32,000 nt of DNA. It comes from an uncultured Actinomycetes bacterium (GTDB lineage: Bacteria; Actinomycetota; Actinomycetes; S36-B12; CAIYMF01). How positions within the stretch are numbered: the first letter of the stretch is position 1; every line of letters starts with the position of its first letter. The DNA lies in NCBI GenBank assembly GCA_963843975.1, contig CAWJMG010000003.1:240001-272000 (forward strand). Direction: 5' to 3'. Below the pieces are notes generated by a model. The model saw nothing but the letters and a program-made list of their open reading frames with translations. It made no database searches and had not been told where the DNA came from. This document shows, piece after piece, positions 17,436-31,835 of this stretch. Both the position numbers and the translations under genes were made by a program.

Positions 17436-17638
17436 TCCGCGTTCAGGGCCCCCACCAGATCCACGGCTCCTTCCCCTGCCGGCACGACCCCGCACGACCG
17501 CACGAAGCAAGAAACAGCACCGAGGAATACCGCGAGAACCCAGCAGTTCCAGGCAATAACGGCACTGCACCAGACGTTGAACAAGCAGGACTCGAACAAG
17601 CTCCCCACGGGGGATCGAGCCGGTCAGTGGAGGAACGC

Positions 17639-20512
17639 ATGACGGAGACGACAGGCGCCAAGGCGTCGAAGAAGGCCGCTACCCCCAGGGTCGCAGGCCT
17701 CACCATCGACCGGATCTACACCACTCCGGGGGTGCACCCGTACGACGACGTCACCTGGGAGCACCGCGACGTGGTGCAGACCAACTGGAAGACCGGCGAG
17801 ACCGTCTTCGAGCAGCGCGCGGTGGAGTTCCCCGACTTCTGGACGGTCAACGCCTCCACGATCGTCACCACGAAGTACTTCCGCGGCGCCGTGGGCACCG
17901 ACCAGCGCGAGCGCAGCCTGCGCCAGCTGATCGACCGCGTCGTGCTCACCTACACCAAGGCGGGCAAGGACTTCGGCTACTTCCTCACCGAGGAGGACGC
18001 CACCGTCTTCGAGCACGAGCTCACCTGGATGCTGCTGCACCAGGTCTTCAGCTTCAACAGCCCCGTGTGGTTCAACGTCGGTACGACGAGCCCGCAGCAG
18101 GTCAGCGCCTGCTTCATCCTCGCCGTCGACGACACGATGGACTCGATCCTGAACTGGTACCGCGAGGAGGGCCTGATCTTCAAGGGCGGCTCCGGTGCCG
18201 GCCTCAACCTCTCCCGCATCCGCTCGAGCAAGGAGCTGCTGCACTCCGGCGGCACCGCGAGCGGCCCGGTCTCCTTCATGCGCGGCGCCGACGCCAGCGC
18301 CGGCACCATCAAGAGCGGCGGCGCCACGCGTCGTGCGGCCAAGATGGTCGTGCTCGACGTCGACCACCCCGACATCGAGGAGTTCATCGAGACCAAGGCC
18401 GCGGAGGAGCGCAAGATCCGCGTGCTCCGCGACGCCGGCTTCGACATGGACCTCGGCGGCAAGGACATCACCTCGGTCCAGTACCAGAACGCCAACAACT
18501 CGGTCCGCGTGACCGACGAGTTCATGCGCGCTGTCGAGGAGGGCACCGAGTTCGGCCTCCGCGCCCGCTCGACCGGCGAGATCATCGAGACGGTCGACGC
18601 CAAGAAGCTGTTCGAGAAGATCGCGCTCGCCGCGTGGGAGTGCGCCGACCCGGGCATCCAGTACGACGGCACGATCAACGACTGGCACACCAACCCCGAG
18701 ACGGGCCGCATCACCGCGAGCAACCCGTGCTCGGAGTACATGAGCCTCGACAACAGCTCGTGCAACCTCGCGAGCCTCAACCTGCTGAAGTTCCTCAAGG
18801 ACGACGACACGTTCGACGCCGTCACCTTCGGCAAGGCCGTCGACCTCATCATCACGGCGATGGATATCTCGATCTGCTTCGCGGACTTCCCGACCGAGCC
18901 GATCGGCGACACCACCCGCAAGTACCGCCAGCTCGGCATCGGCTTCGCCAACCTCGGCGCGCTGCTCATGGCGACCGGCCTGCCCTACGACAGCGACGGC
19001 GGCCGCGCGCTCGCCGGCGCGATCACGAGCCTCATGACGGGCCGCGCCTACAAGCGCTCCGCCGAGCTCGCCGCGATCGTCGGCCCGTACGAGGGCTACG
19101 CCCGCAACGCCGACGCCCACAAGCGCGTGATGCGCAAGCATGCTGCGGCCACCGACGGCGTCCGCACCGTGACGAGCCTCGACTCGGACGTGCTCAAGCT
19201 CGCGCAGAAGGCGTGGGAGGACGGCGTCAAGCTCGGCGAGAAGAACGGCTACCGCAACGCGCAGGCCTCGGTGCTCGCGCCGACCGGCACCATCGGCTTC
19301 ATGATGGACTGCGACACCACCGGCATCGAGCCCGACTTCTCGCTGGTGAAGTTCAAGAAGCTCGTCGGCGGCGGCTCGATGCAGATCGTCAACCAGACGA
19401 TCCCGCGGGCGCTGCGCAAGCTCGGCTACACCGAGGAGACGGTCGAGGCGATCGTCGAGTACATCTCCGACAAGGGGCACGTCGTCGACGCTCCCGGCCT
19501 CAAGACCGAGCACTACCCGGTGTTCGACACCGCGATGGGCGAGCGCTCGATCACGCCCATGGGCCACGTGCGGATGATGGCGGCCTGCCAGCCGTTCCTC
19601 TCGGGCGCGATCTCCAAGACGGTGAACATGCCGGAGGAGGCCACGGTCGAGGAGATCGAGGAGGTCTACTTCCAGAGCTGGAAGATGGGCATCAAGGCGC
19701 TCGCGATCTACCGCGACAACTGCAAGGTCGGCCAGCCGCTCTCGGACGGCAAGTCGACCAAGGCCGACAACGGCGTCGCCGCCGTCGCCAGCCCCGCGAC
19801 GGTCGTCGAGTACCGCCCGATCCGCAAGCGCCTGCCCAAGAAGCGCCCGTCGCAGACGGTGTCGTTCTCGGTCGGCGGTGCCGAGGGCTACATGACCGCC
19901 GGCTCCTACCCGGACGACGGCCTGGGCGAGGTCTTCCTCAAGCTCGGCAAGCAGGGCTCGACGCTCGCCGGCGTGATGGACGCCTTCTCCATCGCGATCT
20001 CGATCGCGCTGCAGTACGGCGTGCCGCTCGAGGCCTATGTCTCGAAGTTCGTCAACATGCGCTTCGAGCCGGCCGGTCTCACCGACGACCCGGACATCCG
20101 CATGGCGCAGTCGATGATGGACTACATCTTCCGCCGCCTCGCACTGGACTACCTGCCCTACGAGAAGCGCTCGGCCCTCGGCATCTTCACCGCCGACGAG
20201 CGCGCCGAGCAGGTCGCCGGCTCGTACAACACCCCGGCCCCCGCCGCCGAGATCGCCGCGGCCGTGACCGAGGAGCTCGAGACCCTCGCGCAGTCGGCTC
20301 CGGTGTCGGCCCCGACGGCTCCGTCCTCGGACGACGCCGCTCTCGGTGCGATCGCTGCGCCGAAGGAGGCCCACTCCTCGGCCGAGCTGCTCGAGGTCAT
20401 CACCGGCAAGGCCTCGGACGCGCCGCTCTGCATGACCTGCGGCATCAAGATGCGCCCGGCCGGCAGCTGCTACGTCTGCGAGGGCTGCGGCTCGACCAGC
20501 GGCTGCAGCTGA
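17639..20512 (+). CDS. nrdJ: adenosylcobalamin-dependent ribonucleotide reductase, class II (NrdJ)
   Basis: About 957 aa. GGAGG (17629-17633) precedes ATG 17639. Class II signatures: ASNPCSEYMSLDNSSCNLASLNL, TGIEPDFSLVKFKKLVGG, and the C-terminal Cys cluster CMTCGIKMRPAGSCYVCEGCGSTSGCS. The nrdR-nrdJ pairing is as in Streptomyces. Confidence 0.95.
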   Translation: MTETTGAKASKKAATPRVAGLTIDRIYTTPGVHPYDDVTWEHRDVVQTNWKTGETVFEQRAVEFPDFWTVNASTIVTTKYFRGAVGTDQRERSLRQLIDRVVLTYTKAGKDFGYFLTEEDATVFEHELTWMLLHQVFSFNSPVWFNVGTTSPQQVSACFILAVDDTMDSILNWYREEGLIFKGGSGAGLNLSRIRSSKELLHSGGTASGPVSFMRGADASAGTIKSGGATRRAAKMVVLDVDHPDIEEFIETKAAEERKIRVLRDAGFDMDLGGKDITSVQYQNANNSVRVTDEFMRAVEEGTEFGLRARSTGEIIETVDAKKLFEKIALAAWECADPGIQYDGTINDWHTNPETGRITASNPCSEYMSLDNSSCNLASLNLLKFLKDDDTFDAVTFGKAVDLIITAMDISICFADFPTEPIGDTTRKYRQLGIGFANLGALLMATGLPYDSDGGRALAGAITSLMTGRAYKRSAELAAIVGPYEGYARNADAHKRVMRKHAAATDGVRTVTSLDSDVLKLAQKAWEDGVKLGEKNGYRNAQASVLAPTGTIGFMMDCDTTGIEPDFSLVKFKKLVGGGSMQIVNQTIPRALRKLGYTEETVEAIVEYISDKGHVVDAPGLKTEHYPVFDTAMGERSITPMGHVRMMAACQPFLSGAISKTVNMPEEATVEEIEEVYFQSWKMGIKALAIYRDNCKVGQPLSDGKSTKADNGVAAVASPATVVEYRPIRKRLPKKRPSQTVSFSVGGAEGYMTAGSYPDDGLGEVFLKLGKQGSTLAGVMDAFSIAISIALQYGVPLEAYVSKFVNMRFEPAGLTDDPDIRMAQSMMDYIFRRLALDYLPYEKRSALGIFTADERAEQVAGSYNTPAPAAEIAAAVTEELETLAQSAPVSAPTAPSSDDAALGAIAAPKEAHSSAELLEVITGKASDAPLCMTCGIKMRPAGSCYVCEGCGSTSGCS

Positions 20513-20520
20513 TCGAAGAC

Positions 20521-20589
20521 TCCGTTCTCACACTGTGAGAACGGCCAGACTCGGGGCGGGTTGTCGTGGGGAAGCGACAACCCGCCCCG
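20521..20589 (+). terminator. two consecutive hairpins after nrdJ (core/island boundary)
   Basis: First hairpin: CCGTTCTCACA-C-TGTGAGAACGG (20521-20543). Second hairpin: TCGGGGCGGGTTGTCG (20550-20565), loop TGGGGAAG, CGACAACCCGCCCCGA (20574-20589). Confidence 0.6.
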
Positions 20590-20801
20590 ACTCGTTTCCA
20601 CAAAGCAGTTGTCCGAACTCCCTCGGTGTCGTTCTGTGGAGGGACGGCCACAGGGAGCCTCGGCCGCTACAGCGTTGTCCTCTCACCCAACGAGAGGATG
20701 GAATCGTGCAAAGCCAACACGGCTGTCGATCGCTTAGGGCCGGAAGTCTGAGCTCGCCGGTAGTGTCGCCGCGGAGTCAATCGACAGAGGGGGGTAACGC
20801 A

Positions 20802-23800
20802 ATGACTCGGATCTTCGACAACATTGGGGACGCTCTCGGCCCGCACCTCCAGGCGACCCTGTCGAAGTACGACCGTATTGACGCAGCAGTCGGCTACTTC
20901 AACCTGAGGGGCTGGGCCCTCTTCGCTCCGCTGATCGAGTCCAAGACCGTTGGCACCGTCCCCGTCGCGCGGGTCTTGGTAGGCATGACCACCGCAGACC
21001 CGGGCGCGCAAGTTCTGGATGCCCTGCAAAGTGACCTTGACGGGGTCGCGGGCGACGAGGACATCGACCGAGATGTGGCTCGCCGGCGTCGCGAGCGCGC
21101 AATCCTGAAGTTCCGCGAGCAGCTGTCCCGAGGCATCCCGAACGAGCAGGACCTCGAGACGCTTCGTACCCTCCGGGCGCATCTGGAGGACGGGCGCGTC
21201 GCCGTCAAGTTGTTCACGCGTCGCCCGCTCCACGGCAAGACCTACATCGCGCACCGGATGGACCTCAACAACCCCATCACCGCGTTCGTCGGCTCGTCCA
21301 ACCTCACCCTCTCTGGCCTGAAGCACAACTACGAACTCAACGTCGACGTTCTCGACTCGGACGGGACGAAGAAGCTCGACCACTGGTTCGAGGACCGTTG
21401 GAACGACACGTTCAGCCTCGACATCACCGCCGACCTCATCACCCTGATCGACCAGTCGTGGGTCAGCGAAACGCCGCTGACCCCGTACGACGTGTACCTG
21501 AAGGTCTGCTACCACCTATCTCGCGACGTCAGAGAGGGCCTCGCCGAGTTCTCCATCCCAGCCGGCCTGCGCGAGCAGTTGCTCGACTACCAGACCAGCG
21601 CCGTGAAGACCCTCGCACGACGAATCCAGCACCGCGGCGGCACGATGCTCGGCGACGTCGTCGGCCTCGGAAAGACCATCACGGCGGTCGCCGTCGCCGC
21701 GACCCTTCGCGAGGACTACGGTTACGAGCCGCTCATCGTGTGCCCGAAGAACCTTGAGAAGATGTGGCGCGCGTACCTCGACAAGTACGAACTCCCAGGC
21801 CGCGTCGTCCCCTACAGCCTCGCTGCCCGCGACCTGCCCAACATGCGCCGCTACCGGTTCGTAATCGTGGACGAGAGCCACACCCTGCGGAACTCCACGC
21901 GGCAGGACTACCAGGCCCTCCACGACTACATCCGCAGGAACGACTCCAAGGTCCTGCTGCTCACTGCAACCCCGTACAACATCAGGTTCGGGGACGTCGC
22001 CAACCAGATCGGGCTCTACGTCGACGATGACGATGATCTTGGCCTGCAGCCGCTGGCCGCGATCGCAAAGAACCCGTCTCTGATGGACAAGGTCGACGGG
22101 AAGGTCACCTCGCTGGGAGCGTTCCGCCGGTCGGACGAGCCCGACGACTGGAAGCGCCTCATGTCCGACCATCTAGTGCGCCGCACCCGTGGGTTCGTCA
22201 AGGCGAACTACTCGCTCATCGACGAGCACGGACGTGAGTACCTCACGTTCGCAGACGGCAGCAGGTTCTACTTCCCGACTCGCAAGCCGAAGCCGATCGA
22301 GCACGACTTCGGCAAGAAGGACCCCGCTCGCCTCATGGCGTCGGACAAGACGCTCGACACAATCTCCGTTCTTCTTCTTCCCCGCTACGGTCTCGGTGAC
22401 TACGTCTCTCCGGACGCTAAGCCGACCGCTGGCGAGCAGAAGGTCATTGAGAAGATCCAGCGCGCGTCGGGTCACCTGTCAGGCTTCGTCCGCACCGGCC
22501 TCTACAAGCGACTCTCCTCCTGCGGCCATTCCTACACGCTCTCGTTGCAGCGCCATCTCGCCCGCAACGAGCTGTGGGTGTACGCCATCGACAACGACCT
22601 GCCGCTTCCCGTCGGAACGATCCTTGACTCGATGTTCGACTCCGACCCGGACAGCACCACTGAAGCGGATGAGGACTACGACCTGGACGACGCGGACTAC
22701 TCCGCCGTCGCGATCAGGGACTACGACGCCCTGAAGAAGCGCAACCCCCCGTCCATCGTGTGGGTGAAGTCGTCCCTGTTCGCTCCAGACCTGCGCGACC
22801 ACCTCGTGCAGGACGCTAACGCCATCCGCGGCCTGCTGAGCAAGTACGGCACGTGGGACCAGAAACGCGACTCCAAGATCGACGCGCTGGCGGACCTGCT
22901 GACGGGCAAGCACAAACGCGACAAGGTCCTGATCTTCACCGAGTACGCCGACACCGCCCGCTACGTTGGAGAGGCGCTTGCAAAGCGGGGGATCAAGTCC
23001 GTCGGCGTCGTCACGGGTGCTAGCAGCGACCCCACCGACATGGCCCGCAGATTCTCCCCGAAGAGTAACGAGGACCTCGGTCAGGGAGAGATCCCGGTCG
23101 GTAACGAGATTCGCGTTCTCGTCACCACGGACGTGCTCAGCGAGGGCCAGAACCTCCAGGACGCCCACGTCGTCGTCAATTACGACCTGCCCTGGGCGAT
23201 CATCAGGCTGATCCAGCGCGCCGGCCGTGTCGACCGCATCGGACAGCAGTCCGACACCGTGTTCGTCTACTCCTTCTTCCACGGCGACGTCGAAGGCGTC
23301 CTCAACCTTCGCGAGCGAATCCGGCACCGGCTGGAGACCAACGCACAGGTGTTCGGCAGCGACGAACGATTCTTTGGTACCAAGAACGAGACCGCGACGA
23401 TCGAGGGCCTCTACAACGGCGACCTGAAGGACGACGAGTTCGAGGCCGAGTCGGACAACGACGCCACCTCGATCGCCTACGAGATCTGGACCAACGCCGC
23501 CGAGGAAGACCCCCAGCGTGCCGAGCGCATCAAGAACCTCCCGGACCTCGTGTACGCGACCCGCCCGGTTCGGGCGGAAGAGCCGAGCGGCATCGGTGTC
23601 TACGTCCGCACCGATCGCGGAGTCGACGGCTTCGGCTGCGCCGAGACCGCCGACGGCGTACGCCTGATGACGGGGCAGGAAGCGCTTCGCTTCTTCCAGG
23701 CAGAGCTTGAGACGCCGTCCCTGCCGCGCCAGGATAACCACTTCCGCCTTGTCGCGGACCTCGTGAAGGGGCCGCTCCGCCGACCGGACCTCGTTGAAGG

Positions 23801-24077
23801 CCGACTCCGGGGCGTTCGTTCACGGGTGTGGCGTCGGCTGAACGGTCACCTCGCGACCGCCGATCCCTATGTATCCGAAGCCCTCGACGCCCTCTACCGT
23901 CGTCCCCTCACCGTCGAAGCGGATGACCGCATCCGACGCGCGCTCTCCATGCGCGACGAAGACGAACTCGCCCAACTTCTCGTCGTGCTCCACGCCGACG
24001 CACGACTCGTCCTGCCCGACGGCCCGGGCAGTGACCCGATCCGCATCGTCTGCACCATGGGGGCCGCACGTGCATAG
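20802..24077 (+). CDS. PLD-family (HKD) nuclease domain fused to an SNF2-family helicase (1091 aa)
   Basis: This is an internal ATG 20802 of ORF 20535..24077, preceded by AGAGGGGGG. There is a single HKD-like motif, HGKTYIAH...VGSSNLTLSG (HGK at 21231-21239). SNF2 motifs: DVVGLGKT (I), VIVDESH (II), LLLTATPYN (III), TTDVLSEGQNLQ (V) and QRAGRVDRIGQ (VI). The roughly 250-aa C-terminal region is uncharacterised. Confidence 0.9.
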   Translation: MTRIFDNIGDALGPHLQATLSKYDRIDAAVGYFNLRGWALFAPLIESKTVGTVPVARVLVGMTTADPGAQVLDALQSDLDGVAGDEDIDRDVARRRRERAILKFREQLSRGIPNEQDLETLRTLRAHLEDGRVAVKLFTRRPLHGKTYIAHRMDLNNPITAFVGSSNLTLSGLKHNYELNVDVLDSDGTKKLDHWFEDRWNDTFSLDITADLITLIDQSWVSETPLTPYDVYLKVCYHLSRDVREGLAEFSIPAGLREQLLDYQTSAVKTLARRIQHRGGTMLGDVVGLGKTITAVAVAATLREDYGYEPLIVCPKNLEKMWRAYLDKYELPGRVVPYSLAARDLPNMRRYRFVIVDESHTLRNSTRQDYQALHDYIRRNDSKVLLLTATPYNIRFGDVANQIGLYVDDDDDLGLQPLAAIAKNPSLMDKVDGKVTSLGAFRRSDEPDDWKRLMSDHLVRRTRGFVKANYSLIDEHGREYLTFADGSRFYFPTRKPKPIEHDFGKKDPARLMASDKTLDTISVLLLPRYGLGDYVSPDAKPTAGEQKVIEKIQRASGHLSGFVRTGLYKRLSSCGHSYTLSLQRHLARNELWVYAIDNDLPLPVGTILDSMFDSDPDSTTEADEDYDLDDADYSAVAIRDYDALKKRNPPSIVWVKSSLFAPDLRDHLVQDANAIRGLLSKYGTWDQKRDSKIDALADLLTGKHKRDKVLIFTEYADTARYVGEALAKRGIKSVGVVTGASSDPTDMARRFSPKSNEDLGQGEIPVGNEIRVLVTTDVLSEGQNLQDAHVVVNYDLPWAIIRLIQRAGRVDRIGQQSDTVFVYSFFHGDVEGVLNLRERIRHRLETNAQVFGSDERFFGTKNETATIEGLYNGDLKDDEFEAESDNDATSIAYEIWTNAAEEDPQRAERIKNLPDLVYATRPVRAEEPSGIGVYVRTDRGVDGFGCAETADGVRLMTGQEALRFFQAELETPSLPRQDNHFRLVADLVKGPLRRPDLVEGRLRGVRSRVWRRLNGHLATADPYVSEALDALYRRPLTVEADDRIRRALSMRDEDELAQLLVVLHADARLVLPDGPGSDPIRIVCTMGAARA

Positions 24078-27000
24078 CACCGACCAGATGCTCGCTCTGT
24101 TGGATCAAGGTGACTTCCGAACCCTGTTCATCGAGCACCTCGGATGGTCCAAGCCCAAGGGGGGCCACCTCAACATCCCGATCGACGACACGACCTACGA
24201 CCTAGAGCCGATTGCGGAGTACCACGGCATCAAGGTCTGGGCATGTAACACGGTGCCCGACCGGCGCACCCAGCGCCTCATCGACGTAGCGCTCCGGCGC
24301 GAGGGAACCGAGCGTCTGACGATCTTCCACGACTCCGTTCACCAGGAGTGGAAGTGGCCCATGTCGGGCGACGCCCACGGACGCGGGCAGGGCCGGCTCG
24401 TCACGCACGAACACTTCGTCGGCAAGCGGACCGAGGCGCTTCTTCAGCGCCTCAGCCAGATCACCATCGGCATGGATGAGTCTCCGTCAGTCGTTGAGAT
24501 CGTCGCTCGTCTGCGAAAGGCCTTCGACGCCGACCGGATGACTGCGGCGTTCTACACCAAGTTCTCCAAGCAGGCTGAGGACCTCGCCAAGTCCATTCGC
24601 GGGCTCAGCGTCGTAGCCGATCGCGAGTGGTACGCCGCGTTGCTGATGAACAGGCTCATGTTCATCTACTTCATGCAGCGCAAGGGCTTCATGGACGGAC
24701 AGTCCGACTACCTGGCCGACCGCCTTCGGTCGATCCGTGCAGCTAAGGGCGAGGACAAGTTCTACGAGTTCTACACGGACTTCCTCATCCCGCTGTTCCA
24801 CGACGGTCTCGGATCCAGCCAGCGACCGCTCACAGACGCCGGCATGGCGGCGCTCGTCGGCGACGTGCCCTACGTCAACGGCGGAATCTTCAGCGTCCAC
24901 CCGCTGGAGCGAGACCACAAGATCGGCATCCCGGACCGTGCTTTCGAGGAGATCTTCGAGCTGTTCGACGCCTATCAGTGGCACCTCGACGACCGACCCA
25001 CAGGCAACCCTAGCGAAATCAACCCTGACGTCCTCGGTTACATCTTCGAGCAGTTCATCAACAACAAGGAGCAGGGCGCGTACTACACCAAAGATGACGT
25101 CACCTACTTCATGACGTCGTCGACGCTCCTGCCGGCCTATCTCGACCGCCTCATCGCCGCGACGGGAGTCAACCCCTGGATCCATGTCACCGCTGACCCC
25201 AACCGGTACATCTGGGACGGACTGACCTACGGCACCGACGAGCCCCTACCCAAGGACGTCGCGGACTCAGCCGACGAGCCATGGCCCCGTAACGGGTGGT
25301 CGCATCAGGCCAGCGAGACGTGCGGCCTTCCAGGCGAGACATGGTGGGAGGTAGACCACCGCAGGAAGGCACTCGACCACGTCCGCCAGGCCCTCGCCAA
25401 CGGCCAAGTCGCCAGTGTCGATTCAGCGATCACCAAGAACATCGACCTGGAGTCCCTGGTCGTCGACACGATTGACCGGCTCGACTCCCCAGACGACGTC
25501 ATTACCGCGTGGCAGGCACTGACCGACATCAAGATCGTCGATCCGACCTGTGGATCGGGCGCGTTCCTGTTTGCCGCCTTGAAGATCCTGGAGGTCGTCT
25601 ACTCAGTCATCCTGGACGCCGCGGAGAGGCACGCCGCGACCGCGAGCAACCACGAGATCGACGCGCTGCTTGACCGCGTGCGCAGCCACCCCAGCCGCAC
25701 GCACTTCGTGCTCAAGCACGCGACCCTGAACAACCTCTACGGCGTCGACATCATGAAGGAAGCCGTGGAGATTGCCCGACTCCGCCTGTTCCTCAAACTG
25801 GTCTCTGCAGCGGAGTCGCGAGACCGGCTAGAGCCGCTGCCGGATCTCGACTTCAACATCAAGCCGGGAAACATCCTCGTCGGGTCGTACTCCGTCGACG
25901 CCATCGAGCAGGACTCCGACGATCTGCTGTCCGGCTCTACCGCAGACGCCGTCACCGAAGCCGCCAAACGCATCGCCGACGACTACCGCGCGTTCCGGGC
26001 CGCCAGCGAAACCGGTGACAACGACGCCATCGCAGGGCGCAAGGAGCGCCTCCTCTCGGCCCTGGATCAGACCCGCGCCATTGTCGACGCCCAGTACCAC
26101 GCAGCGAACGGCGGCCGCGCTGGCGGCCTGGAGAAATGGCGGACGACCCACCAGCCGTTCCACTGGTTCATAGAGTTTCCCGAGGTGTTCGCCAACGGTG
26201 GGTTCGACGTCGTTCTCGGTAACCCACCGTATGTCTCGCGCACCAAGGTCAAGGACTACACCTACCGCGGATTCCGCACGGACCATCTCTCCGACATCTA
26301 CGCGCCGTGCGTCGAACGAGCCACGCAGATCACCAACCCGAACGGCCGATTCGCGATGATCCTGCCCATCTCGGTGCAGTTCGCGGACGGGTTCCAGGAG
26401 GCGCGAGGCGTCCTCGAAGACGCCTACCCCGGCCTGTGGGTGAGTGCCTTCTCTCGCAACCCCGCAGCCCTTTTCAGCGCCGGCCTCGGCGTCCGATCGA
26501 CCATTGTAATCGGCACCCGCACAGGTGACGCTGGCCTCTTCGTCACGAAGACCCACCGCTGGTACGACGAGTATCGGCCCGCCTTGTTCGAGACGCTGCA
26601 CTACCTCAAACTGCCCGACTCGCTTCGCGCTGAGGGCTGGCTGCGGCCGACAAGCGAAGGCCTCGCCGAGATCATGGTGACGGCGCTGGCGGAACCGGGC
26701 TCCATTGGCACTGCTGTACGCCCCTGGGACGGCGGCAGTGTCGGGTTCAAGCAGACGAGCCTCTACTGGCTGTCTGTGTTTCCCGAGGACCCACCGTGCT
26801 TCGAGTTGGACGGTCGGATCGCGGAGCAGACGAAGATCGGTCGCCTCAAGTTCGGCAGCGAGGAGGAGGCACTGCTCGCGACCGCCGTCCTGGCGTCGAA
26901 GTTCGCCTTCGTTTGGTGGTACTGCTCCGGAGACGACTTCGACGTCACTCAGGACGGGCTCCGTAGAACCCCCATCGACCCCACGCGCCTGTCTGCCGAG

Positions 27001-27264
27001 ACCAAGCGCAGCCTGATCAAGTCGGCACTGGCGATGATCGCCGACTTCCCGAACCACGTGATGTTCACGAAGTACGCCGGGAAGTGGATGGGCAACTATG
27101 TGCACTCCGAAATGCGGGACATCACGGACCGGATCGACCTCGCGCTCGCGAAAGAGCTCGGTTACGTGGACCTGCTCCCGGCGCTCGAGCACGCGTACTA
27201 CTGCGTGTACAAGCCGACTGGTGACCGGCCAGGTACGTTGCGGGAGTCGCCGTTCTCAGATTGA
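24070..27264 (+). CDS. gamma-class N6-adenine DNA methyltransferase, Eco57I/PglX/DrmMI-like, with long N- and C-terminal extensions (about 1064 aa)
   Basis: GTG 24070 overlaps the helicase stop (TAG 24075-24077) by 8 nt. ATG 24088 is an alternative start. Motifs: GAYYTKDDV (motif X), VDPTCGSGAFLFAA (motif I, 25540-25560) and VVLGNPPYV (motif IV, NPPY at 26221-26232). The N-terminal LGWSKP... region is as seen in MmeI/PglX-type enzymes. Confidence 0.9.
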   Translation: MHSTDQMLALLDQGDFRTLFIEHLGWSKPKGGHLNIPIDDTTYDLEPIAEYHGIKVWACNTVPDRRTQRLIDVALRREGTERLTIFHDSVHQEWKWPMSGDAHGRGQGRLVTHEHFVGKRTEALLQRLSQITIGMDESPSVVEIVARLRKAFDADRMTAAFYTKFSKQAEDLAKSIRGLSVVADREWYAALLMNRLMFIYFMQRKGFMDGQSDYLADRLRSIRAAKGEDKFYEFYTDFLIPLFHDGLGSSQRPLTDAGMAALVGDVPYVNGGIFSVHPLERDHKIGIPDRAFEEIFELFDAYQWHLDDRPTGNPSEINPDVLGYIFEQFINNKEQGAYYTKDDVTYFMTSSTLLPAYLDRLIAATGVNPWIHVTADPNRYIWDGLTYGTDEPLPKDVADSADEPWPRNGWSHQASETCGLPGETWWEVDHRRKALDHVRQALANGQVASVDSAITKNIDLESLVVDTIDRLDSPDDVITAWQALTDIKIVDPTCGSGAFLFAALKILEVVYSVILDAAERHAATASNHEIDALLDRVRSHPSRTHFVLKHATLNNLYGVDIMKEAVEIARLRLFLKLVSAAESRDRLEPLPDLDFNIKPGNILVGSYSVDAIEQDSDDLLSGSTADAVTEAAKRIADDYRAFRAASETGDNDAIAGRKERLLSALDQTRAIVDAQYHAANGGRAGGLEKWRTTHQPFHWFIEFPEVFANGGFDVVLGNPPYVSRTKVKDYTYRGFRTDHLSDIYAPCVERATQITNPNGRFAMILPISVQFADGFQEARGVLEDAYPGLWVSAFSRNPAALFSAGLGVRSTIVIGTRTGDAGLFVTKTHRWYDEYRPALFETLHYLKLPDSLRAEGWLRPTSEGLAEIMVTALAEPGSIGTAVRPWDGGSVGFKQTSLYWLSVFPEDPPCFELDGRIAEQTKIGRLKFGSEEEALLATAVLASKFAFVWWYCSGDDFDVTQDGLRRTPIDPTRLSAETKRSLIKSALAMIADFPNHVMFTKYAGKWMGNYVHSEMRDITDRIDLALAKELGYVDLLPALEHAYYCVYKPTGDRPGTLRESPFSD

Positions 27265-27454
27265 ACGGACACGACGAGGAGTGCCAGCAATGGGTCGGTG
27301 GTTCGTGCTCCACCTCGTGGGGATTGGCCGCTCGAGACGCCCAAGGTACGGCGACCCTGTAAGCATGAGGTCCTCGCCGAAATGGCCGAGCTGATGGGCG
27401 AAACGCGGGTGGAAAGGGCTGCTTGGGCCCCTCGCAAGGCAGCTATCAGCCCCT

Positions 27455-28975
27455 CTATGGCGCGGTTTGCCCCGCTTGTCGCTCGAGCGTCAACCCTGTT
27501 CGAATTGCGCGGCCAAGCGCCTTTTGGTACCTGGTCCATGCCTCGTCGGTTCTGACGTCTGTTCGTTCCGGGAACGGCAGATCGACCAGTCGCAGCTCGT
27601 AGGTCCTTTCCGGCGCTCGAAGGAGATTTCTGCCGTTCTGGCCTACCTGTCCAGACCTGTTCGGGTAGAACACAGCCCCGCTGTCGGTCAGCTGACTGGA
27701 CCCCGGGGCTTTCGCTGTGTGGCTGTAAGCGAACATCTGATCGCCGTCCGATGCGCCCAGCGAACCCGTGTCCACCTTGTACTTTGCGTCGGCGAGCACG
27801 TGCTTGCCTTCGAGCTCGAAGATGAAGTCGGCTCGCCGGTTCGCCCCCTCGAGCGGCCCAGAGAATGGGAGCCAAGGCGGTGAGACGGGCACTTGCGCAT
27901 GAGTGCCATTTGGATCCGCGATCGTGTGCAGGGCGCCGAGCAGGCACTGCTCCCACCACTTCTCCATGTACAGGTGGACTGCCAGGGCTCTGTCGGTTCT
28001 GGCATTCCCCTCTGTGGGGACCACCGAGGCCCGGCTCAGCACTTGCACTGCCCCGAGAACGGCGCCGGCCCACTGCTGCTCCAGGCTATTGAGGACAAGA
28101 CGACGCGCAGCAACGAGTGCACGCTCCCTGTCGAGCACCGCCACGGTGTCCAGCTTCCGGGCTAGCCCGACGGCCTGCGCACGGATCGGAGCCGAAAGAT
28201 GACTTAGGGCGGGTGGGACGCGTTCACGAGCCACGGTGTGTAGCCCAGCTAGGACGATCCGGAGCAGCGTCGTGTCGCCGGACTGCTCGTCAAATCTGCA
28301 TCTCACCTGTGGCGTGCCCGTGAGCAATGCAAGTACCAAACTCGTGCCCGAGAGCCTTCCGCGCGGGCTCGTCAGCTCCTCGACCCGCTCTCGATATCCA
28401 GGTCTAGCCCTGTCCACCACCCGGCGGACCTCGTCAACGAACAGCTTGTGTTCGACGAGCCGCACCAGAGACTGCGCGGCGGTCCCGTCGTATCCGTCGT
28501 CAAGCGCGACCTTCTGACGATTGGCCAGCAGTACCAAGGACGCGACGGAGTCAAACGAACCCCCGTCCGATACCGGGGGTAGAACGCCGCCACCCGAGGG
28601 CCGAATCAGCTGAAGTAAGTCCTGACGCCCCTCCTGGCCTGCGATCTCTAGAATCGCTTGAGCTAGCGAAGCGGTAGCGCTTGGCGTGCTGCGACCCTCG
28701 GCGGAATCCATCTCGAACAATGTGACGTGTGTTGTGGTCCCGGGGATGTGATCCGGAAGGAGCAGGTGGCGACGTTCTCCCGGGCCCCAAGGTTTGGGGA
28801 GGATCGTGATGGTCCAAGCACCACCATCACCGTCTGGCAGAATCGCGAAACCGGCTCGGGTACCCCGCGGGCTTGCGCTGAAGGCGATTCTGGAACTCGC
28901 CCTGGGTTCGCTCGTTGTCGAGACCACGGGAAGCTCGTTACGCCTCGCCGGTTTCGGACAGCAATGTCGGCTCAC
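27455..28975 (-). CDS. mcrC: McrC-like nuclease subunit (PD-(D/E)xK) of a Type IV McrBC-like restriction system
   Basis: It overlaps the upstream McrB-like gene by 38 nt if GTG 28975 is used (alternative GTG 28927). The C-terminal motif RADFIFELEGKHVLADAKYK (ADAKYK at 27776-27793) is the McrC-type D...E/DxK nuclease signature. Confidence 0.75.
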   Translation of the reverse strand: MSRHCCPKPARRNELPVVSTTSEPRASSRIAFSASPRGTRAGFAILPDGDGGAWTITILPKPWGPGERRHLLLPDHIPGTTTHVTLFEMDSAEGRSTPSATASLAQAILEIAGQEGRQDLLQLIRPSGGGVLPPVSDGGSFDSVASLVLLANRQKVALDDGYDGTAAQSLVRLVEHKLFVDEVRRVVDRARPGYRERVEELTSPRGRLSGTSLVLALLTGTPQVRCRFDEQSGDTTLLRIVLAGLHTVARERVPPALSHLSAPIRAQAVGLARKLDTVAVLDRERALVAARRLVLNSLEQQWAGAVLGAVQVLSRASVVPTEGNARTDRALAVHLYMEKWWEQCLLGALHTIADPNGTHAQVPVSPPWLPFSGPLEGANRRADFIFELEGKHVLADAKYKVDTGSLGASDGDQMFAYSHTAKAPGSSQLTDSGAVFYPNRSGQVGQNGRNLLRAPERTYELRLVDLPFPERTDVRTDEAWTRYQKALGRAIRTGLTLERQAGQTAP

Positions 28976-30482
28976 CGGCGGCAGGCTCCAGGCTCACGAA
29001 CTCCTCGACGACTAGTCCGGCGGCGAGGCCCTGCCCCGCCAACGAGATCTTCAGCCCGAGGTGGCCGTTGAGGAAGCCTTCGAAGGATTCGAGGTTCTTC
29101 TCCACTTGCACGGCCGCACTAGGGGAGAGGTTGGCATCCAGCCAAGGCCGCCTCGACTCGGCGGTAAGGATGTCCAAGGAGAACGCCTGTGTCACCGTGT
29201 CCAATAGTTGAGGGAGAATCGCATAGCGCCAGACCGCCTTCTCGCGATCGGCGCCACTCAACTCCGACTCGGACCTGAATTGCCCGAAACGCCTGGTGGT
29301 TGATTGCGCCTGCCAGCTGGACTTGGCCTGGTAGCCGGCCAGGCCGCTTGCCCTGGGACCGTCGAACGGCAAGTACTCGAGCGCAAGCTCGCTGGTCCCA
29401 ATGGGCCGCCAGACTGTGACGCCATTGTTCATCTCGTGGAATGGCATACCAGTGAAGCGAACGTTGCCGCGGCTCGGATTCTCGAGACGGACCTTGTGGC
29501 TCATTCCGTTGTGGTGAACTGTGAACTGGACGGAGTTGCCCTTGCTGCTCAGGCTCTTACCCGATCCTGCGCCGACCAGAAGGCGACTTGCCCAGTCTTT
29601 CGTCACCTGGAGTTGCGTGCCCGTCGCCACGGCAGCGCCGTCCACTTCCATCCAGTAGGACGGCGCTCCGGCGCTGAGGCCAAGATCGAAAAGGTAACTG
29701 TGGCCAAGAGTCGAGTTTGGGCCTAGCGCTCGACCCAAGGCCTGGTTCAGTGTGTCAAGGGCGTTCACAGATCGCTCTATGATCTCGGGCCCGACACCGT
29801 TCAAGACCGTGGTCAACCTGGATTTCAAGTCGTCGCCAGAAAGCGGTAGTACCCGCACGAATGCGAACCTCCTACGAAGTGCGGAGTCGAGTGGCGCGAT
29901 TGATCGATCGGAGGAGTTCATGGTCCCGATCAGATACAGGTTGTCTGGCACGCCAAGCAGCTTGTTGGAATAGGGAAGCTGGGTTGTAACGCCACCCTTC
30001 CAGCACAAGTCATGGGTTCCATCTGTCCGGGTGCAATTGGGATCGTGTCGAAGCCGTTTCGACCCCTCCAGACCTAGGAGCAGGTCGCCGAGCACCTTTG
30101 AGACGTTCGCGCGGTTGATCTCGTCGATCAAAACGAGGAAATCCCGGCTCGGTGAGGCCCGCGCCACCTTGATCCATTCCTGGAAAACCCCGGAACGCAA
30201 CTCGAATCCCCTGGGCTTGCTTGCGGGGTCTTCCGAACTGGCAGGAGCCGGGTTGTATCGGATTCCTTCGACGAACTCCTCGTAACTCGTGCTTGGGTGG
30301 AAGGTGACCGCCCACGAGCCGACTCCAACGGCTGGTTCGCCGCGGTCGTTGCTGCCGATAAGGCGGGGCCAGGCTTCCGCAATGGCCGCGATAGAGAACG
30401 ACTTCCCAGTTCCGGGAGGGCCCTCCAGAATTGCGTTCTTGAATACCTGCAGTGCTTCAACGGCATCGCTAACAGTCGTCAC
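28938..30482 (-). CDS. mcrB: McrB-like AAA+ GTPase with an N-terminal ATPase domain and an uncharacterised C-terminal domain of about 230 aa
   Basis: Motifs: Walker A EGPPGTGKSF (30399-30422), Walker B/McrB box LVLIDEINRANVSKVLGDLL, the McrB signature GTMNSSDRS (MNxxDRS), and RRRF. Confidence 0.85.
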   Translation of the reverse strand: MTTVSDAVEALQVFKNAILEGPPGTGKSFSIAAIAEAWPRLIGSNDRGEPAVGVGSWAVTFHPSTSYEEFVEGIRYNPAPASSEDPASKPRGFELRSGVFQEWIKVARASPSRDFLVLIDEINRANVSKVLGDLLLGLEGSKRLRHDPNCTRTDGTHDLCWKGGVTTQLPYSNKLLGVPDNLYLIGTMNSSDRSIAPLDSALRRRFAFVRVLPLSGDDLKSRLTTVLNGVGPEIIERSVNALDTLNQALGRALGPNSTLGHSYLFDLGLSAGAPSYWMEVDGAAVATGTQLQVTKDWASRLLVGAGSGKSLSSKGNSVQFTVHHNGMSHKVRLENPSRGNVRFTGMPFHEMNNGVTVWRPIGTSELALEYLPFDGPRASGLAGYQAKSSWQAQSTTRRFGQFRSESELSGADREKAVWRYAILPQLLDTVTQAFSLDILTAESRRPWLDANLSPSAAVQVEKNLESFEGFLNGHLGLKISLAGQGLAAGLVVEEFVSLEPAAGEPTLLSETGEA

Positions 30483-30672
30483 AGCGATCCTCGGCTTTGG
30501 TGCTCATGCCCATGCTGCGAGGTTATCCGGGTTCATGACGTTGGGACGGGAAAAGCGGATTGGAAGGCCACCTGGCGAGATCGATCGCTTCGCGAAGAGC
30601 GAGCCGGGCCGTCAGCCACTCTCTGCGGCTGGCGGTGCATGCTCCGGCGATTCACGCGTTCGACCTGCGATC

Positions 30673-31146
30673 TCAGGCGACGTCCTCGTCGGAGCCGACG
30701 GACTCGAGGTCGACCGGAAACGGAGTGGATCCTCCGAAGACCGCGGCCACCATGACGCCGATCTCGTCGGCGACCGTCGTGACGGAATCGAGTGCACGCT
30801 CGATGGCGGGCTTGTCGACCGACATCCAGTGGATCGCGGCGTCGATCACGATGGCGCCGTCGTCCCAGGAGATCGAGGTCCAGCGGCTGCGGGGGTTGAG
30901 CTCGGTCAGTTCGGTGAGCATCTTGCGCGACTTCGGCACCTCGTTCGCAGCCAGTGCAAACACGCGGACACCAGGCTGAGAGCCCCTGACCATTGAGACC
31001 CAGCACATCGACGTCTGGGAGCGGAAGGGGTAGTCGTCGTCGGCGTCGGTGGCCAGCTCGGTGTGGCCCCAGATCTCCTGCAGGGCGCGCTCCACGTGCG
31101 AGCGCAGCATCCGCGTCATCTGCTCGTTGCTCTGGGTCTCGGTCAT
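30673..31146 (-). CDS. YbjN-like (putative chaperone/sensory-transduction-regulator fold) protein, 157 aa
   Basis: Strong RBS GAGGAGAGGTGGAG precedes ATG 31146. It is an acidic cytoplasmic protein. The overall pattern (WVSMVRGSQPGVRVFA...AIHWMSVD) resembles actinobacterial YbjN-domain proteins. The assignment is from memory, not from a search. Confidence 0.55.
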   Translation of the reverse strand: MTETQSNEQMTRMLRSHVERALQEIWGHTELATDADDDYPFRSQTSMCWVSMVRGSQPGVRVFALAANEVPKSRKMLTELTELNPRSRWTSISWDDGAIVIDAAIHWMSVDKPAIERALDSVTTVADEIGVMVAAVFGGSTPFPVDLESVGSDEDVA

Positions 31147-31256
31147 CTCGACTCCACCTCTCCTCGTATGTCACCAGGGTAGGGAGGGGGTCTGACAGTC
31201 GAAATGGCATGGAGGAGTGCAGGAATCACCCGACTCGGAGGTTCCGAAATGTCTGC

Positions 31257-31835
31257 TCATGACTCCGAGTGGGCCACGTCGCTGCGGCCCTTCGAGCGCT
31301 TGCCGTAGGCTCGCCGCAGCTCCGTCAAGCGACTGCGTACGTCCGTTCGCGGCATCTTGTCGAGGTTGAGCGGCGGGTCGAGCTCGGCGAGCAGGGCTGT
31401 TTCCAGATGGTCGAGCGAGTCGGCATCCTCCACGGGGATCGCGATGACCCTGAGGTGGTCGTGCATCCATGCCGTGAGCCGGATCTCGTCGATGCCGGCG
31501 TCTCCGTTGGCGCTCGCGAGGATCGATCCGAGACTCAGCCGGAACGTCGAGAACTCGTGGCGACCGGCGAGGTGCATGCCTTTGATCCGCCCCCACAGGG
31601 TGTTCTTTGACTTCCTCCCGCTCTTCACGCGGGTCGCTCCAGCAAGGCCGGCGTAGATGAGGCCAGGTGCGATCTCCTGCCCAAGGCCTCGTGACAGATC
31701 GTCCGCTCCGCTCGCATCGACCCACCAGCTGTAGAGGCCGGGTGATCGGAGTCCTTCGCCCTCCGTGGCGAGGAACTCGGCAGGCGTCACCGCCGTGCTC
31801 TTCGCCGTCAGCGACTCGAGGAGCCTCCGAGGCAT
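31257..31835 (-). CDS. hypothetical protein with GIY-YIG-nuclease-like motifs (192 aa)
   Basis: ATG at 31835. Motifs: GLYSWWV ... LIYAGLAG ... LWGRIKGMH ... STFRLSLGSIL ... ETALLAELDPPLNL, which resembles the GIY...YIG...R...E...N layout. The composition is balanced, unlike the overlapping Arg-rich ORF 31171..31944. Confidence 0.5.
   Translation of the reverse strand: MPRRLLESLTAKSTAVTPAEFLATEGEGLRSPGLYSWWVDASGADDLSRGLGQEIAPGLIYAGLAGATRVKSGRKSKNTLWGRIKGMHLAGRHEFSTFRLSLGSILASANGDAGIDEIRLTAWMHDHLRVIAIPVEDADSLDHLETALLAELDPPLNLDKMPRTDVRSRLTELRRAYGKRSKGRSDVAHSES

What the first reader, a model, noticed from the sequence alone, without database searches (positions are those of the whole stretch)
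20802..27264. Translationally coupled PLD-nuclease/SNF2-helicase fusion plus PglX/Eco57I-like m6A methyltransferase: a two-gene ATP-dependent R-M-like module that fits no canonical class
Seen in sequence:
- The 1091-aa ORF carries one HKD-type PLD nuclease motif (HGKTYIAH...GSSNLT) N-terminal to a complete SNF2 helicase core (GLGKT, DESH, TATP, QRAGRVDRIGQ).
- Its stop (TAG 24075-24077) is overlapped by the GTG 24070 start of an approximately 1064-aa gamma-class adenine methyltransferase (DPTCGSG, NPPY).
- I could not spot a PD-(D/E)xK or HNH motif in the methyltransferase.

Established knowledge:
- Class 1 DISARM combines DrmD (SNF2), DrmMI (adenine MTase) and DrmC (PLD) with the core DrmA helicase and DrmB (DUF1998).
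- Type ISP enzymes fuse nuclease, SF2 motor, MTase and TRD in a single chain.
- NgoAVII/CglI use a PLD nuclease together with a helicase-like ATPase.

Inference: motor and nuclease are on one protein and MTase and specificity on the other, and no DrmA/DrmB-like gene is present anywhere in the window. The pair therefore looks like a self-contained, minimal translocating restriction-modification or DISARM-like system. A single HKD copy implies that cleavage needs dimerisation, which points to collision-type cleavage.
Basis: partly seen in the sequence, partly recalled or inferred. Interest (0 to 1): 0.85.

Follow-up and report, generated by a model that had tools for sequence, protein, structure and literature searches.

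The report
Two-gene helicase-nuclease plus methylase restriction system
Two overlapping genes, one encoding a DNA motor fused to a nuclease and one a nuclease-less adenine methylase, form a widespread pair that most likely acts as a two-protein, ATP-driven restriction-modification system that I did not find described as a system.

Summary
A 1091-aa HKD(PLD)-SNF2 protein (20802-24077) is overlapped by 8 nt by a 1064-aa Eco57I-type adenine methylase (GTG 24070-27264).

The pair is a conserved unit:
- The methylase partner lies next to the helicase, on the same strand, in 75 of 76 evaluable loci from many phyla, and in 9 of 9 evaluable viral-collection loci.
- No DrmA/DrmB-like or DUF499-like large gene recurs. 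The window's McrBC-like neighbour is not conserved.

New findings:
- The methylase starts with a family-specific ~175-aa domain with no Pfam match, no PDB fold match and no conserved (D/E)xK.
- In one actinobacterial group the methylase body is swapped for an MmeI-type body. There this domain sits exactly where MmeI carries its nuclease.
- Synechocystis PCC 6803 carries the pair on pSYSX. Its methylase is Slr6050 (M.Ssp6803IV), tentatively assigned to the asymmetric site GAAGGC, and its knockout could not be segregated.

Most likely this is a split restriction enzyme organised like Type III and Type ISP systems. The methylase reads and marks the site, and the PLD-SNF2 protein cuts. It is closest to MANTIS (BREX-related type 2) but lacks two of its four parts. 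I rate it a new variant of a known kind, of moderate interest.

The parts
20513..20801 (+). Leader region between the nrdJ stop and gene 1. It holds a GC-rich hairpin at about 20543-20592 (probable nrdJ terminator) and the ribosome-binding site GAGGGGGG just before the ATG. GC content drops here, marking the edge of the island.
   Evidence: No sigma-70-like promoter was found by the simple scan.
20802..24077 (+). Gene 1, the 1091-aa HKD(PLD)-SNF2 protein and predicted restriction subunit. It has an N-terminal single-HKD nuclease domain (~1-220), a RapA-like Swi2/Snf2 ATPase core (~245-850) and a conserved C-terminal region (~890-1091) of unknown role.
   Evidence: Pfam. Invariant H144, K146, G164-S-S-N167 and E178, plus the SNF2 motifs, in alignments across phyla. 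RapA is the best match among solved structures by sequence and by fold. The AF2 model has pLDDT of only 66.
21231..21305 (+). HKD catalytic motif, HGKTYIAHRMDLNNPITAFVGSSNLT (residues 144-168).
   Evidence: It is invariant in all aligned orthologues, including the Synechocystis pSYSX helicase.
24070..24077 (+). 8-nt overlap between the GTG start of gene 2 and the TAG stop of gene 1, consistent with translational coupling.
   Evidence: Tight overlap or a small gap recurs in the actinobacterial loci: 4-nt ORF overlaps and estimated gaps of about -15 to -6 nt.
24070..24594 (+). N-terminal family-specific domain of the methylase (residues 1-~175). Predicted to be non-catalytic and proposed to couple the methylase to the PLD-SNF2 protein.
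   Evidence: AF2 pLDDT 85.7, alpha-alpha-beta3-alpha-beta3-alpha topology. No PDB fold match (best E = 0.02). No Pfam match. The conserved residues are mostly hydrophobic (L19, F20, L24, G25, W26, G53, P63, W94, W96). E93 and K95 of the window's 'EWK' are E in 7 and K in 2 of 70 sequences. The domain is shared with the MmeI-type partners. It is found in 503 cluster representatives, at the N-terminus in essentially all of the 150 listed.
24595..25060 (+). Helical spacer region (residues ~176-330), including WYAALLMNRLMFIYFMQRKGF. It corresponds to the MmeI helical spacer.
   Evidence: Strong conservation. Weak, sub-threshold MmeI_hel similarity at residues 191-274, E = 0.16.
25061..26440 (+). 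Gamma-class N6-adenine methyltransferase domain (residues ~331-790): GAYYTK, motif I DPTCGSG (491-497) and motif IV NPPY (718-721), with long insertions.
   Evidence: Pfam Eco57I, MmeI_Mtase and N6_Mtase. PADLOC REase_MTase_IIG PDLC03628, E = 6e-171. Invariant columns.
26441..27264 (+). C-terminal ~270 aa of the methylase, the predicted target-recognition region. It is the most variable part of the protein.
   Evidence: tblastn recovers this piece in only about 21 of the loci that keep the catalytic piece. No Pfam match. The TRD assignment is an inference by analogy with MmeI and Type IIG enzymes.

Best explanation
The two genes encode a two-subunit, ATP-dependent restriction-modification system. 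It is organised like a Type III system, or like a Type ISP enzyme split in two, but it is built from different parts.

Proposed mechanism:
1. The methylase subunit recognises a short, probably asymmetric sequence through its variable C-terminal region.
2. It methylates one adenine (m6A) to mark host DNA.
3. Its own nuclease position is taken by a non-catalytic ~175-aa N-terminal domain. Together with the helical spacer, this domain couples site recognition to the PLD-SNF2 subunit.
4. On unmethylated sites the PLD-SNF2 subunit is recruited or switched on.
5. It uses ATP to move along or remodel the DNA.
6. It cuts with a single PLD active site formed from the HKD halves of two protomers.

What is shown: the domain content, the intact catalytic motifs, the tight and widespread gene linkage, the partner-body swap that retains the N-domain, and the published phenotype of the Synechocystis orthologue.

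What is inferred: physical coupling through the N-domain, ATP-driven translocation, a site-orientation rule, the cleavage geometry, and whether two genes are enough.
For: Linkage:
- A methylase homologue lies next to the helicase on the same strand in 75 of 76 evaluable genome loci, spanning Actinomycetota, Acidimicrobiia, Chloroflexota, Cyanobacteria, Proteobacteria, Bacteroidota, Planctomycetota and others.
- The same holds in 9 of 9 evaluable IMG/VR loci.
- In the window the genes overlap by 8 nt.

No other recurrent large gene: all-against-all clustering of flank ORFs found only a DprA-like gene, in 22 of 80 loci.

Catalytic competence:
- The HKD motif and the SNF2 motifs are invariant.
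- The methylase motifs I and IV are invariant.

The methylase lacks its own nuclease.

Module swap:
- In 15 actinobacterial loci the partner is an MmeI-family protein.
- It aligns to MmeI (5HR4) residues 161-903 only. Its first ~156 residues are instead the N-domain shared with the window methylase, at 37-46% identity in the closer loci.
- In the SNF2 tree these loci sit around the window's own clade.

Variable C-terminus, as expected of a specificity domain.

Mobile and defence context:
- GC drops by 5-10 points from 20.5 kb onward.
- Copies occur on plasmids.
- Neighbours include McrBC-like, Gabija-like, MORC-like and ApeA-like genes.

Synechocystis pSYSX carries the pair:
- Its methylase is 33% identical to the window methylase over 1079 aa.
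- That methylase is Slr6050 (M.Ssp6803IV), tentatively assigned to GA(m6A)GGC.
- Its deletion could not be segregated (PMC6105098). That is the behaviour expected if the partner nuclease is active.

A related architecture is proven to restrict: MANTIS MtsD, a PLD plus SF2 dimer (bioRxiv 10.64898/2026.09.23.753747).
Against: - There is no direct experiment on this family: no restriction assay, no interaction data, and no methylome for this host.
- The Synechocystis motif assignment is tentative, reached by elimination. The authors read non-segregation as essentiality, and it could have another cause.
- MANTIS needs two extra proteins (MtsA, MtsB) for its methylase to work, so two genes may not suffice here.
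- 22 of 80 loci carry an extra DprA-like gene.
- One locus (L061) has an Hsp70-like/TPR protein in place of the methylase.
- The N-domain keeps some conserved polar residues (E81, D88, H113, E137, D153), so an unusual catalytic role is not excluded.
- The full-length helicase model is of low confidence.
Confidence: 0.62

Rival explanations
1. Two independent systems sit side by side. The methylase is a complete single-chain Type IIG/IIL restriction-modification enzyme, and the PLD-SNF2 protein is a stand-alone helicase-nuclease defence such as a SauUSI-like Type IV enzyme.
For: - PADLOC's Type IIG model matches residues 11-846 of the methylase at E = 6e-171.
- NCBIfam and PADLOC contain stand-alone 'PLD + helicase anti-phage' models that give partial hits.
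- HmaA, a Snf2-nuclease fusion, shows antiviral activity against phage T4 (PMC11232893).
Against: - The N-terminal domain has no conserved (D/E)xK, no Pfam nuclease match and no PDB nuclease fold match.
- In the MmeI-type partners the known nuclease domain is precisely the part that is missing.
- Near-obligate adjacency across phyla, with overlapping stop and start codons, is not expected of unrelated systems.
- The helicase has no recognisable modified-base reader domain.
- The PLD-helicase models score far below their cut-offs (161.6 bits against 1100).
Confidence: 0.12
2. The pair is a reduced or decayed remnant of a larger known system, either class 1 DISARM or MANTIS (BREX-related type 2). 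It is non-functional, or it depends on the missing partners encoded elsewhere.
For: - The best PADLOC hits for the helicase are 'HKD+Snf2' (C3a139), at 127.8 bits, and DrmD, at 121 bits.
- DrmMI is the second-best PADLOC hit for the methylase.
- Type-2 BR helicases carry the same N-terminal HKD plus a RapA-like Swi2/Snf2 core, and RapA is the best structural match here.
Against: - No DrmA/DrmB-like, DUF499-like or DUF3780-like gene recurs in the 76 evaluable neighbourhoods, and none is in the window.
- The pair is intact, with invariant catalytic residues, across hundreds of species. Decay would not give that pattern.
- Scores are far below the family cut-offs: DrmD 130 against 610.
- The family-specific N-domain marks this as a lineage of its own.
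Confidence: 0.08
3. The pair has a non-defence role. The methylase would be an epigenetic regulator working with a RapA-like remodeller or repair factor.
For: - RapA, an RNA-polymerase recycling factor, is the closest solved relative.
- Hagemann et al. describe Slr6050 as essential for viability.
- The gene pair lies next to the lexA-nrdR-nrdJ housekeeping genes in the window.
Against: - The HKD nuclease motif is invariant.
- Distribution is patchy across phyla, with copies on plasmids and in viral-collection contigs.
- The region has a deviant GC content and defence-gene neighbours.
- The methylase C-terminus is hypervariable, which fits an arms-race specificity domain rather than a regulator.
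Confidence: 0.05

Closest known systems
MANTIS, also called BREX-related (BR) type 2 or Gao_RL (MtsA-D)
   Same: - The effector is an N-terminal single-HKD nuclease fused to an SF2 (Swi2/Snf2, RapA-like) ATPase.
- Protection comes from an N6-adenine methylase that also sets specificity.
- MANTIS hemimethylates short asymmetric sites. The only orthologue here with data is tentatively assigned to GAAGGC.
   Different: - There is no DUF499 AAA+ ATPase (MtsA) and no DUF3780-type small protein (MtsB) in the window or recurrently in related loci.
- The helicase matches PADLOC's 'HKD+Snf2' model (C3a139) only partially, at 127.8 bits. That this model represents the MANTIS/Gao_RL helicase is my assumption.
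- The methylase is an Eco57I/MmeI-type chain with a family-specific N-terminal domain not described for MANTIS.
Type ISP (LlaGI, LlaBIII) and Type III (EcoP15I) restriction-modification enzymes
   Same: Both combine a nuclease, an SF2 motor, a methylase and a target-recognition domain. They act on asymmetric, hemimethylated sites and use ATP-dependent communication (established knowledge). The two-subunit split here mirrors Mod and Res of Type III systems.
   Different: - The nuclease is HKD/PLD, not PD-(D/E)xK.
- The motor is Swi2/Snf2 (RapA-like).
- The methylase is a gamma-class Eco57I/MmeI type, not a beta-class Mod.
- The functions are split over two chains, unlike Type ISP.
- No sequence-level membership was found.
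Type IIG/IIL single-chain enzymes (Eco57I, MmeI)
   Same: The methylase has the same order of parts after the N-terminus: helical spacer, gamma-class methylase, target-recognition region, C-terminus. The variant partners align to MmeI residues 161-903 at E = 5e-170. PADLOC's Type IIG model matches the window methylase at E = 6e-171.
   Different: The N-terminal PD-ExK nuclease domain is replaced by a different, apparently non-catalytic domain. A separate helicase-nuclease gene is always attached.
Class 1 DISARM (DrmD, DrmMI, DrmA, DrmB, DrmC)
   Same: It also combines a SNF2-like helicase, an adenine methylase and a PLD nuclease.
   Different: - DrmA and DrmB, the core genes, are absent.
- The PLD domain is fused to the SNF2 protein rather than being a separate DrmC.
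- Scores are far below the DrmD cut-off.
PLD-plus-ATPase restriction enzymes (SauUSI; NgoAVII/CglI)
   Same: They pair an HKD nuclease with a helicase-like ATPase. The RE_NgoFVII PLD model matches residues 120-201. A single HKD copy needs a dimer to form an active site.
   Different: SauUSI is a Type IV enzyme that reads methylated cytosine with its own target-recognition domain and has no methylase partner. In NgoAVII/CglI the nuclease and ATPase are separate proteins with a B3-like DNA reader.

Membership tests
Class 1 DISARM | Core genes drmA (helicase with DUF1998 partner) and drmB are in the locus. | tested here: not met
   None in the window. No recurrent large neighbour gene in 80 related loci.
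Class 1 DISARM | The helicase is a DrmD equivalog (NCBIfam NF038317, cut-off 610 bits). | tested here: not met
   130.3 bits. The PADLOC DrmD models give at most 121 bits, as partial matches.
MANTIS / BREX-related type 2 (Gao_RL) | A DUF499 AAA+ ATPase (MtsA) is in the operon. | tested here: not met
   The only AAA protein nearby is a McrB-like AAA_5 protein on the opposite strand, and it is not conserved with the pair. No recurrent gene of about 1000 aa in the flanks.
MANTIS / BREX-related type 2 (Gao_RL) | A small DUF3780-type protein (MtsB) is in the operon; it is present in 98% of type-2 BR loci. | tested here: not met
   The genes overlap in the window, so there is no room between them. 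The only recurrent small neighbour elsewhere is DprA-like (PF02481), in 22 of 80 loci. The inserts seen in about 15 loci were not all scanned.
MANTIS / BREX-related type 2 (Gao_RL) | The effector is an N-terminal HKD nuclease fused to a Swi2/Snf2 (RapA-like) helicase. | tested here: met
   Pfam PLDc_2, SNF2 and Helicase_C. RapA is the best solved relative. Only the architecture is shared: PADLOC's 'HKD+Snf2' model (C3a139) gives a partial match of 127.8 bits.
Type IIG/IIL restriction-modification enzyme | Nuclease and methylase lie in one chain, with an N-terminal PD-(D/E)xK domain carrying catalytic residues. | tested here: not met
Type IIG/IIL restriction-modification enzyme | A gamma-class N6-adenine methylase domain of Eco57I/MmeI type, followed by a C-terminal specificity region. 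| tested here: met
   Pfam Eco57I at 93 bits. PADLOC PDLC03628 at E = 6e-171. Motifs I and IV are invariant. The C-terminus is variable.
Type ISP / Type III ATP-dependent restriction-modification | Cleavage needs ATP and two inverted unmethylated asymmetric sites. | not testable with these tools
   This needs biochemistry. The only support is the tentative asymmetric motif GAAGGC of the Synechocystis orthologue.
Restriction-modification system (general) | Loss of the methylase is lethal while the nuclease is active, and the nuclease restricts unmethylated DNA. | tested here: inconclusive
   The published slr6050 knockout could not be segregated, but the link to the helicase gene has not been tested. 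No restriction assay exists.

The most novel reading that the evidence does not exclude
The ~175-aa N-terminal domain is a previously unrecognised, portable motor-docking module. By replacing the built-in nuclease of Eco57I- and MmeI-type enzymes, it would turn single-chain Type IIG/IIL enzymes into two-protein restriction systems driven by a PLD-SNF2 motor that need no AAA+ loader. That would make this family an evolutionary bridge between Type IIL/IIG, Type ISP/III and the BREX-related (MANTIS) systems. It would also mean that some automated 'Type IIG' calls are really halves of a two-gene system.
Probability: 0.4. Interest if true: 0.7.

Novelty: new variant of a known kind. Interest (0 to 1): 0.55.

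Why it matters
- The family is large. It occurs on plasmids and in model organisms such as Synechocystis PCC 6803.
- The helicases are annotated only as 'helicase-related protein' or 'NgoFVII family restriction endonuclease'. The methylases are annotated as Eco57I-domain or generic DNA methyltransferases.
- If the pair is a working two-gene restriction system, defence-annotation tools mislabel it. PADLOC's Type IIG model matches the methylase and no model covers the helicase.
- The reported 'essentiality' of slr6050 would get a simple explanation.
- It would show how restriction enzymes are rebuilt by swapping a nuclease domain for a docking domain.
- It would be a simpler counterpart to MANTIS for studying how a methylase hands an unmodified site to a PLD-helicase effector.
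- The variable C-terminus on an MmeI-like scaffold could also be a source of new specificities.

Tried and rejected
- Decayed DISARM and incomplete MANTIS were rejected on neighbourhood and score evidence.
- The McrBC-like pair downstream is not part of the system. It is absent from all 80 related loci.
- A hidden PD-(D/E)xK site in the window's 'FHDSVHQEWKW' was rejected. E93 is E in 7 of 70 sequences and K95 is K in 2 of 70.
- The Foldseek search of the N-domain model against the PDB gave only chance-level hits, with best E = 0.02 and TM at most 0.31.
- A sequence search of the window methylase against PDB chains found nothing.
It is a high-GC actinobacterium, judged from gene order and from its homologues.
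- The full-length helicase model was too uncertain (pLDDT 66, HKD region below 50) for anything beyond family-level fold matching.
- The promoter and terminator scan gave nothing useful, and there are no tRNA genes.
- Literature searches for the pair (SNF2/PLD/HKD with Eco57I, MmeI or Type IIG; slr6047) found no description of it as a two-gene system. The library is limited to open-access papers and bioRxiv, so absence is not proof.

Full report
**Setting**

The window is high-GC actinobacterial DNA. Its first 20 kb hold a conserved housekeeping stretch:
- HflX at 2892-4289;
- a DinG-like helicase at 9381-11567;
- a GGDEF protein;
- LexA at 14665-15486, on the minus strand;
- NrdR;
- the B12-dependent reductase NrdJ at 17627-20512.

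After the nrdJ stop and a GC-rich hairpin, GC content falls from 0.69-0.76 to 0.61-0.67 and stays there to the end of the window. The finding therefore lies at the start of an acquired island. The island also carries a convergent McrC-like/McrB-like pair at 27455-30482.

Gene 1 runs from ATG 20802, behind a GAGGGGGG ribosome-binding site, to TAG 24075-24077, and encodes 1091 aa. Gene 2 starts at GTG 24070, 8 nt before that stop ends, and encodes 1064 aa. An ATG at 24088 is a possible alternative start. Public gene calls give the same two lengths.

Pfam finds these domains above their cut-offs:
- gene 1: PLDc_2/RE_NgoFVII at residues 120-201, SNF2-rel_dom and Helicase_C;
- gene 2: Eco57I, with weaker MmeI_Mtase and N6_Mtase hits.

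Among solved structures, the helicase is closest to E. coli RapA by sequence. It is also closest by fold, although the full-length model is only moderately confident at pLDDT 66.

**The pair is a conserved unit**

The helicase has thousands of homologues, many of them full length at about 60% identity in Actinomycetota. I kept 80 loci from many phyla, at 40-58% identity over the full length.

- Four of the 80 loci end too close to the gene to be judged.
- Of the other 76, 75 have a homologue of the window methylase next to the helicase on the same strand.
- In 68 of them the methylase is downstream. In 7 (six Acidimicrobiia-type genomes and one unclassified genome) it is upstream.
- The single exception, L061, has an Hsp70-like/TPR protein instead.
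- Ten IMG/VR contigs carry full-length orthologues. All nine with enough flanking sequence have the methylase too.

I clustered all flank ORFs against each other. After removing shadow ORFs, only one further recurrent gene was left: a DprA-like protein (PF02481) downstream of the methylase in 22 loci, none of them actinobacterial. Nothing like DrmA, DrmB or a DUF499 ATPase recurs, and the McrBC-like pair is unique to the window. Other neighbours are varied defence genes:
- an OLD-family ATPase with a UvrD-like helicase, as in Gabija;
- a MORC-like ATPase;
- an ApeA-like protein.

About 15 loci have 400-1800 nt inserted between the two genes. In Synechocystis the insert is a VapBC pair.

**The catalytic residues are kept**

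- In the helicase, H144, K146, G164-S-S-N167 and E178 of the HKD motif and the SNF2 motifs are invariant in alignments that include cyanobacterial, proteobacterial and Bacteroidota members.
- In the methylase, motif I (DPTCGSG) and motif IV (NPPY) are invariant.
- The last ~270 residues of the methylase are recovered by tblastn in only about a third of the loci that keep the catalytic piece. That is the behaviour expected of a specificity domain.

**The N-terminus of the methylase is the most informative part**

In 15 actinobacterial loci, only the first ~160-360 residues of the window methylase find a match. The rest of those proteins is MmeI family, with MmeI_hel, MmeI_Mtase, MmeI_TRD and MmeI_C domains. 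One of them aligns to the MmeI crystal-structure chain 5HR4 over MmeI residues 161-903 at E = 5e-170. Its first 156 residues do not align.

So the place where MmeI carries its PD-ExK nuclease is taken by a domain shared with the window's Eco57I-type methylase. In a tree of the helicases, the MmeI-type loci form two groups around the clade that holds the window. The methylase body has therefore been exchanged while the N-domain and the helicase stayed together.

Properties of the N-domain:
- It folds confidently (pLDDT 85.7) into an alpha-alpha-beta3-alpha-beta3-alpha unit.
- It has no PDB neighbour by Foldseek (best E = 0.02).
- It has no Pfam match.
- Its strictly conserved residues are mostly hydrophobic or aromatic.
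- The window's D88...E93-W-K95 looks like a nuclease motif, but E93 is E in 7 and K95 is K in 2 of 70 sequences.
- A search of 1.84 billion representative proteins found 503 with this domain. It sits at the N-terminus in essentially all of the 150 listed, and the full-length members are about 920 or about 1050-1280 aa long.

**Published data on an orthologue**

Plasmid pSYSX of Synechocystis PCC 6803 carries a helicase-related protein that is 38.7% identical to the window helicase over its full length. It is followed by VapBC and then by a 1100-aa DNA methyltransferase. That methyltransferase is 33% identical to the window methylase over 1079 residues.

Its length, its plasmid location and its Eco57I domain match Slr6050 as described by Hagemann et al. 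(PMC6105098). Their paper reports the following:
- The enzyme is named M.Ssp6803IV and is tentatively assigned to the asymmetric site GA(m6A)GGC.
- The deletion could not be segregated.
- Recombinant expression in E. coli failed.
- The helicase gene is never mentioned.

A methylase that cannot be removed is what one expects if its partner nuclease is active. This has not been tested.

**Comparison with known systems**

The closest described system is MANTIS, also called BREX-related type 2 or Gao_RL. It has a DUF499 AAA+ ATPase, a small DUF3780-type protein, an N6-methylase and an HKD-SF2 effector. It hemimethylates asymmetric 6-bp sites and restricts best at inverted site pairs. Its effector is a dimer with one shared PLD site.

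The window pair shares the effector architecture and the logic. It lacks two of the four genes. It matches PADLOC's 'HKD+Snf2' helicase model (C3a139) only weakly, at 127.8 bits, about the same as DrmD at 121 bits. That this model stands for the MANTIS/Gao_RL helicase is my assumption. NCBIfam places the helicase in no family: the PLD anti-phage model gives 161.6 bits against a cut-off of 1100, and DrmD gives 130 against 610.

PADLOC's Type IIG model PDLC03628 matches the methylase at E = 6e-171. Automated tools would therefore call the methylase a Type IIG enzyme and ignore the helicase. I found no paper that describes the two-gene system. That search covers only open-access papers and bioRxiv.

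**Mechanism**

I commit to a two-subunit ATP-dependent restriction-modification system, at confidence about 0.6.
1. The methylase subunit reads a short asymmetric site and methylates one adenine.
2. Through its N-domain and spacer it recruits or activates the PLD-SNF2 subunit at unmethylated sites.
3. The PLD-SNF2 subunit uses ATP and cuts with an HKD active site made from two protomers.

Hemimethylated asymmetric sites leave one daughter duplex unmarked after replication. A site-orientation rule of the Type III, Type ISP or MANTIS kind is therefore plausible.

The MANTIS preprint describes MtsD as a dimer with one shared PLD site, likens it to BfiI, and describes SauUSI as an autonomous dimer.

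Rivals:
- two unrelated neighbouring systems, 0.12;
- a remnant of DISARM or MANTIS, 0.08;
- a non-defence role, 0.05.

**Verdict**

The finding is real and its core reading is right. It is a new variant of the helicase-nuclease plus methylase theme. It has a distinctive domain replacement and a ready genetic test in a model cyanobacterium. Interest 0.55.

Noticed in passing
window 27455-30482 (- strand): A convergent McrC-like (506 aa) and McrB-like (514 aa) pair whose genes overlap by 38 nt. The McrB-like protein has its AAA_5 domain at the very N-terminus (residues 17-206), with no N-terminal DNA-reader domain and a ~300-aa C-terminal extension. The McrC-like protein matches PF10117 only at residues 177-423, and PADLOC finds nothing for it. 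The pair is not linked to the helicase-methylase pair in any other locus.
   Followed up: partly
window 20513-32000: GC content drops from 0.69-0.76 to 0.61-0.67 directly after nrdJ and a GC-rich hairpin at about 20543-20592. This suggests an acquired defence island inserted downstream of the conserved lexA-nrdR-nrdJ block. No tRNA gene was found, and no integrase among the ORFs scanned. ORFs at 30289-31944 have no Pfam match.
   Followed up: partly
L053:16711-17346, L063:17768-18388, L074:18068-18811, L034:16587-17204 and 18 more loci: A DprA-like (PF02481) protein of about 210-250 aa is encoded downstream of the methylase, on the same strand, in 22 of 80 loci. All are outside Actinomycetota. 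It may be an accessory third component of the system in those lineages.
   Followed up: partly
L081:12487-13120 (Synechocystis pSYSX) and about 15 other loci: Small genes are inserted between the helicase and methylase genes, in gaps of 400-1800 nt. In Synechocystis the insert is a VapBC toxin-antitoxin pair, an example of genes embedded inside a defence operon.
   Followed up: partly
L061:9984-12413: This is the one evaluable locus without a methylase partner. The PLD-SNF2 gene is followed, with an overlap, by an Hsp70-like protein with TPR repeats.
   Followed up: partly
L108, L115, L119, L124, L136, L144, L151, L155, L159, L160 (IMG/VR contigs): A more distant PLD-SNF2 family of about 860 aa, 24-26% identical over residues 1-845, lacks the C-terminal region. 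No homologue of the window methylase was detected beside it. It may be the stand-alone 'PLD-helicase anti-phage' family of NCBIfam and PADLOC.
   Followed up: no
L008:16134-18893 and L015:16157-17671: In loci with an MmeI-type partner, the next gene downstream is an AAA_16 ATPase of about 920 aa (L008) or an ApeA-like HEPN protein (L015). These are further defence genes packed against the pair.
   Followed up: no
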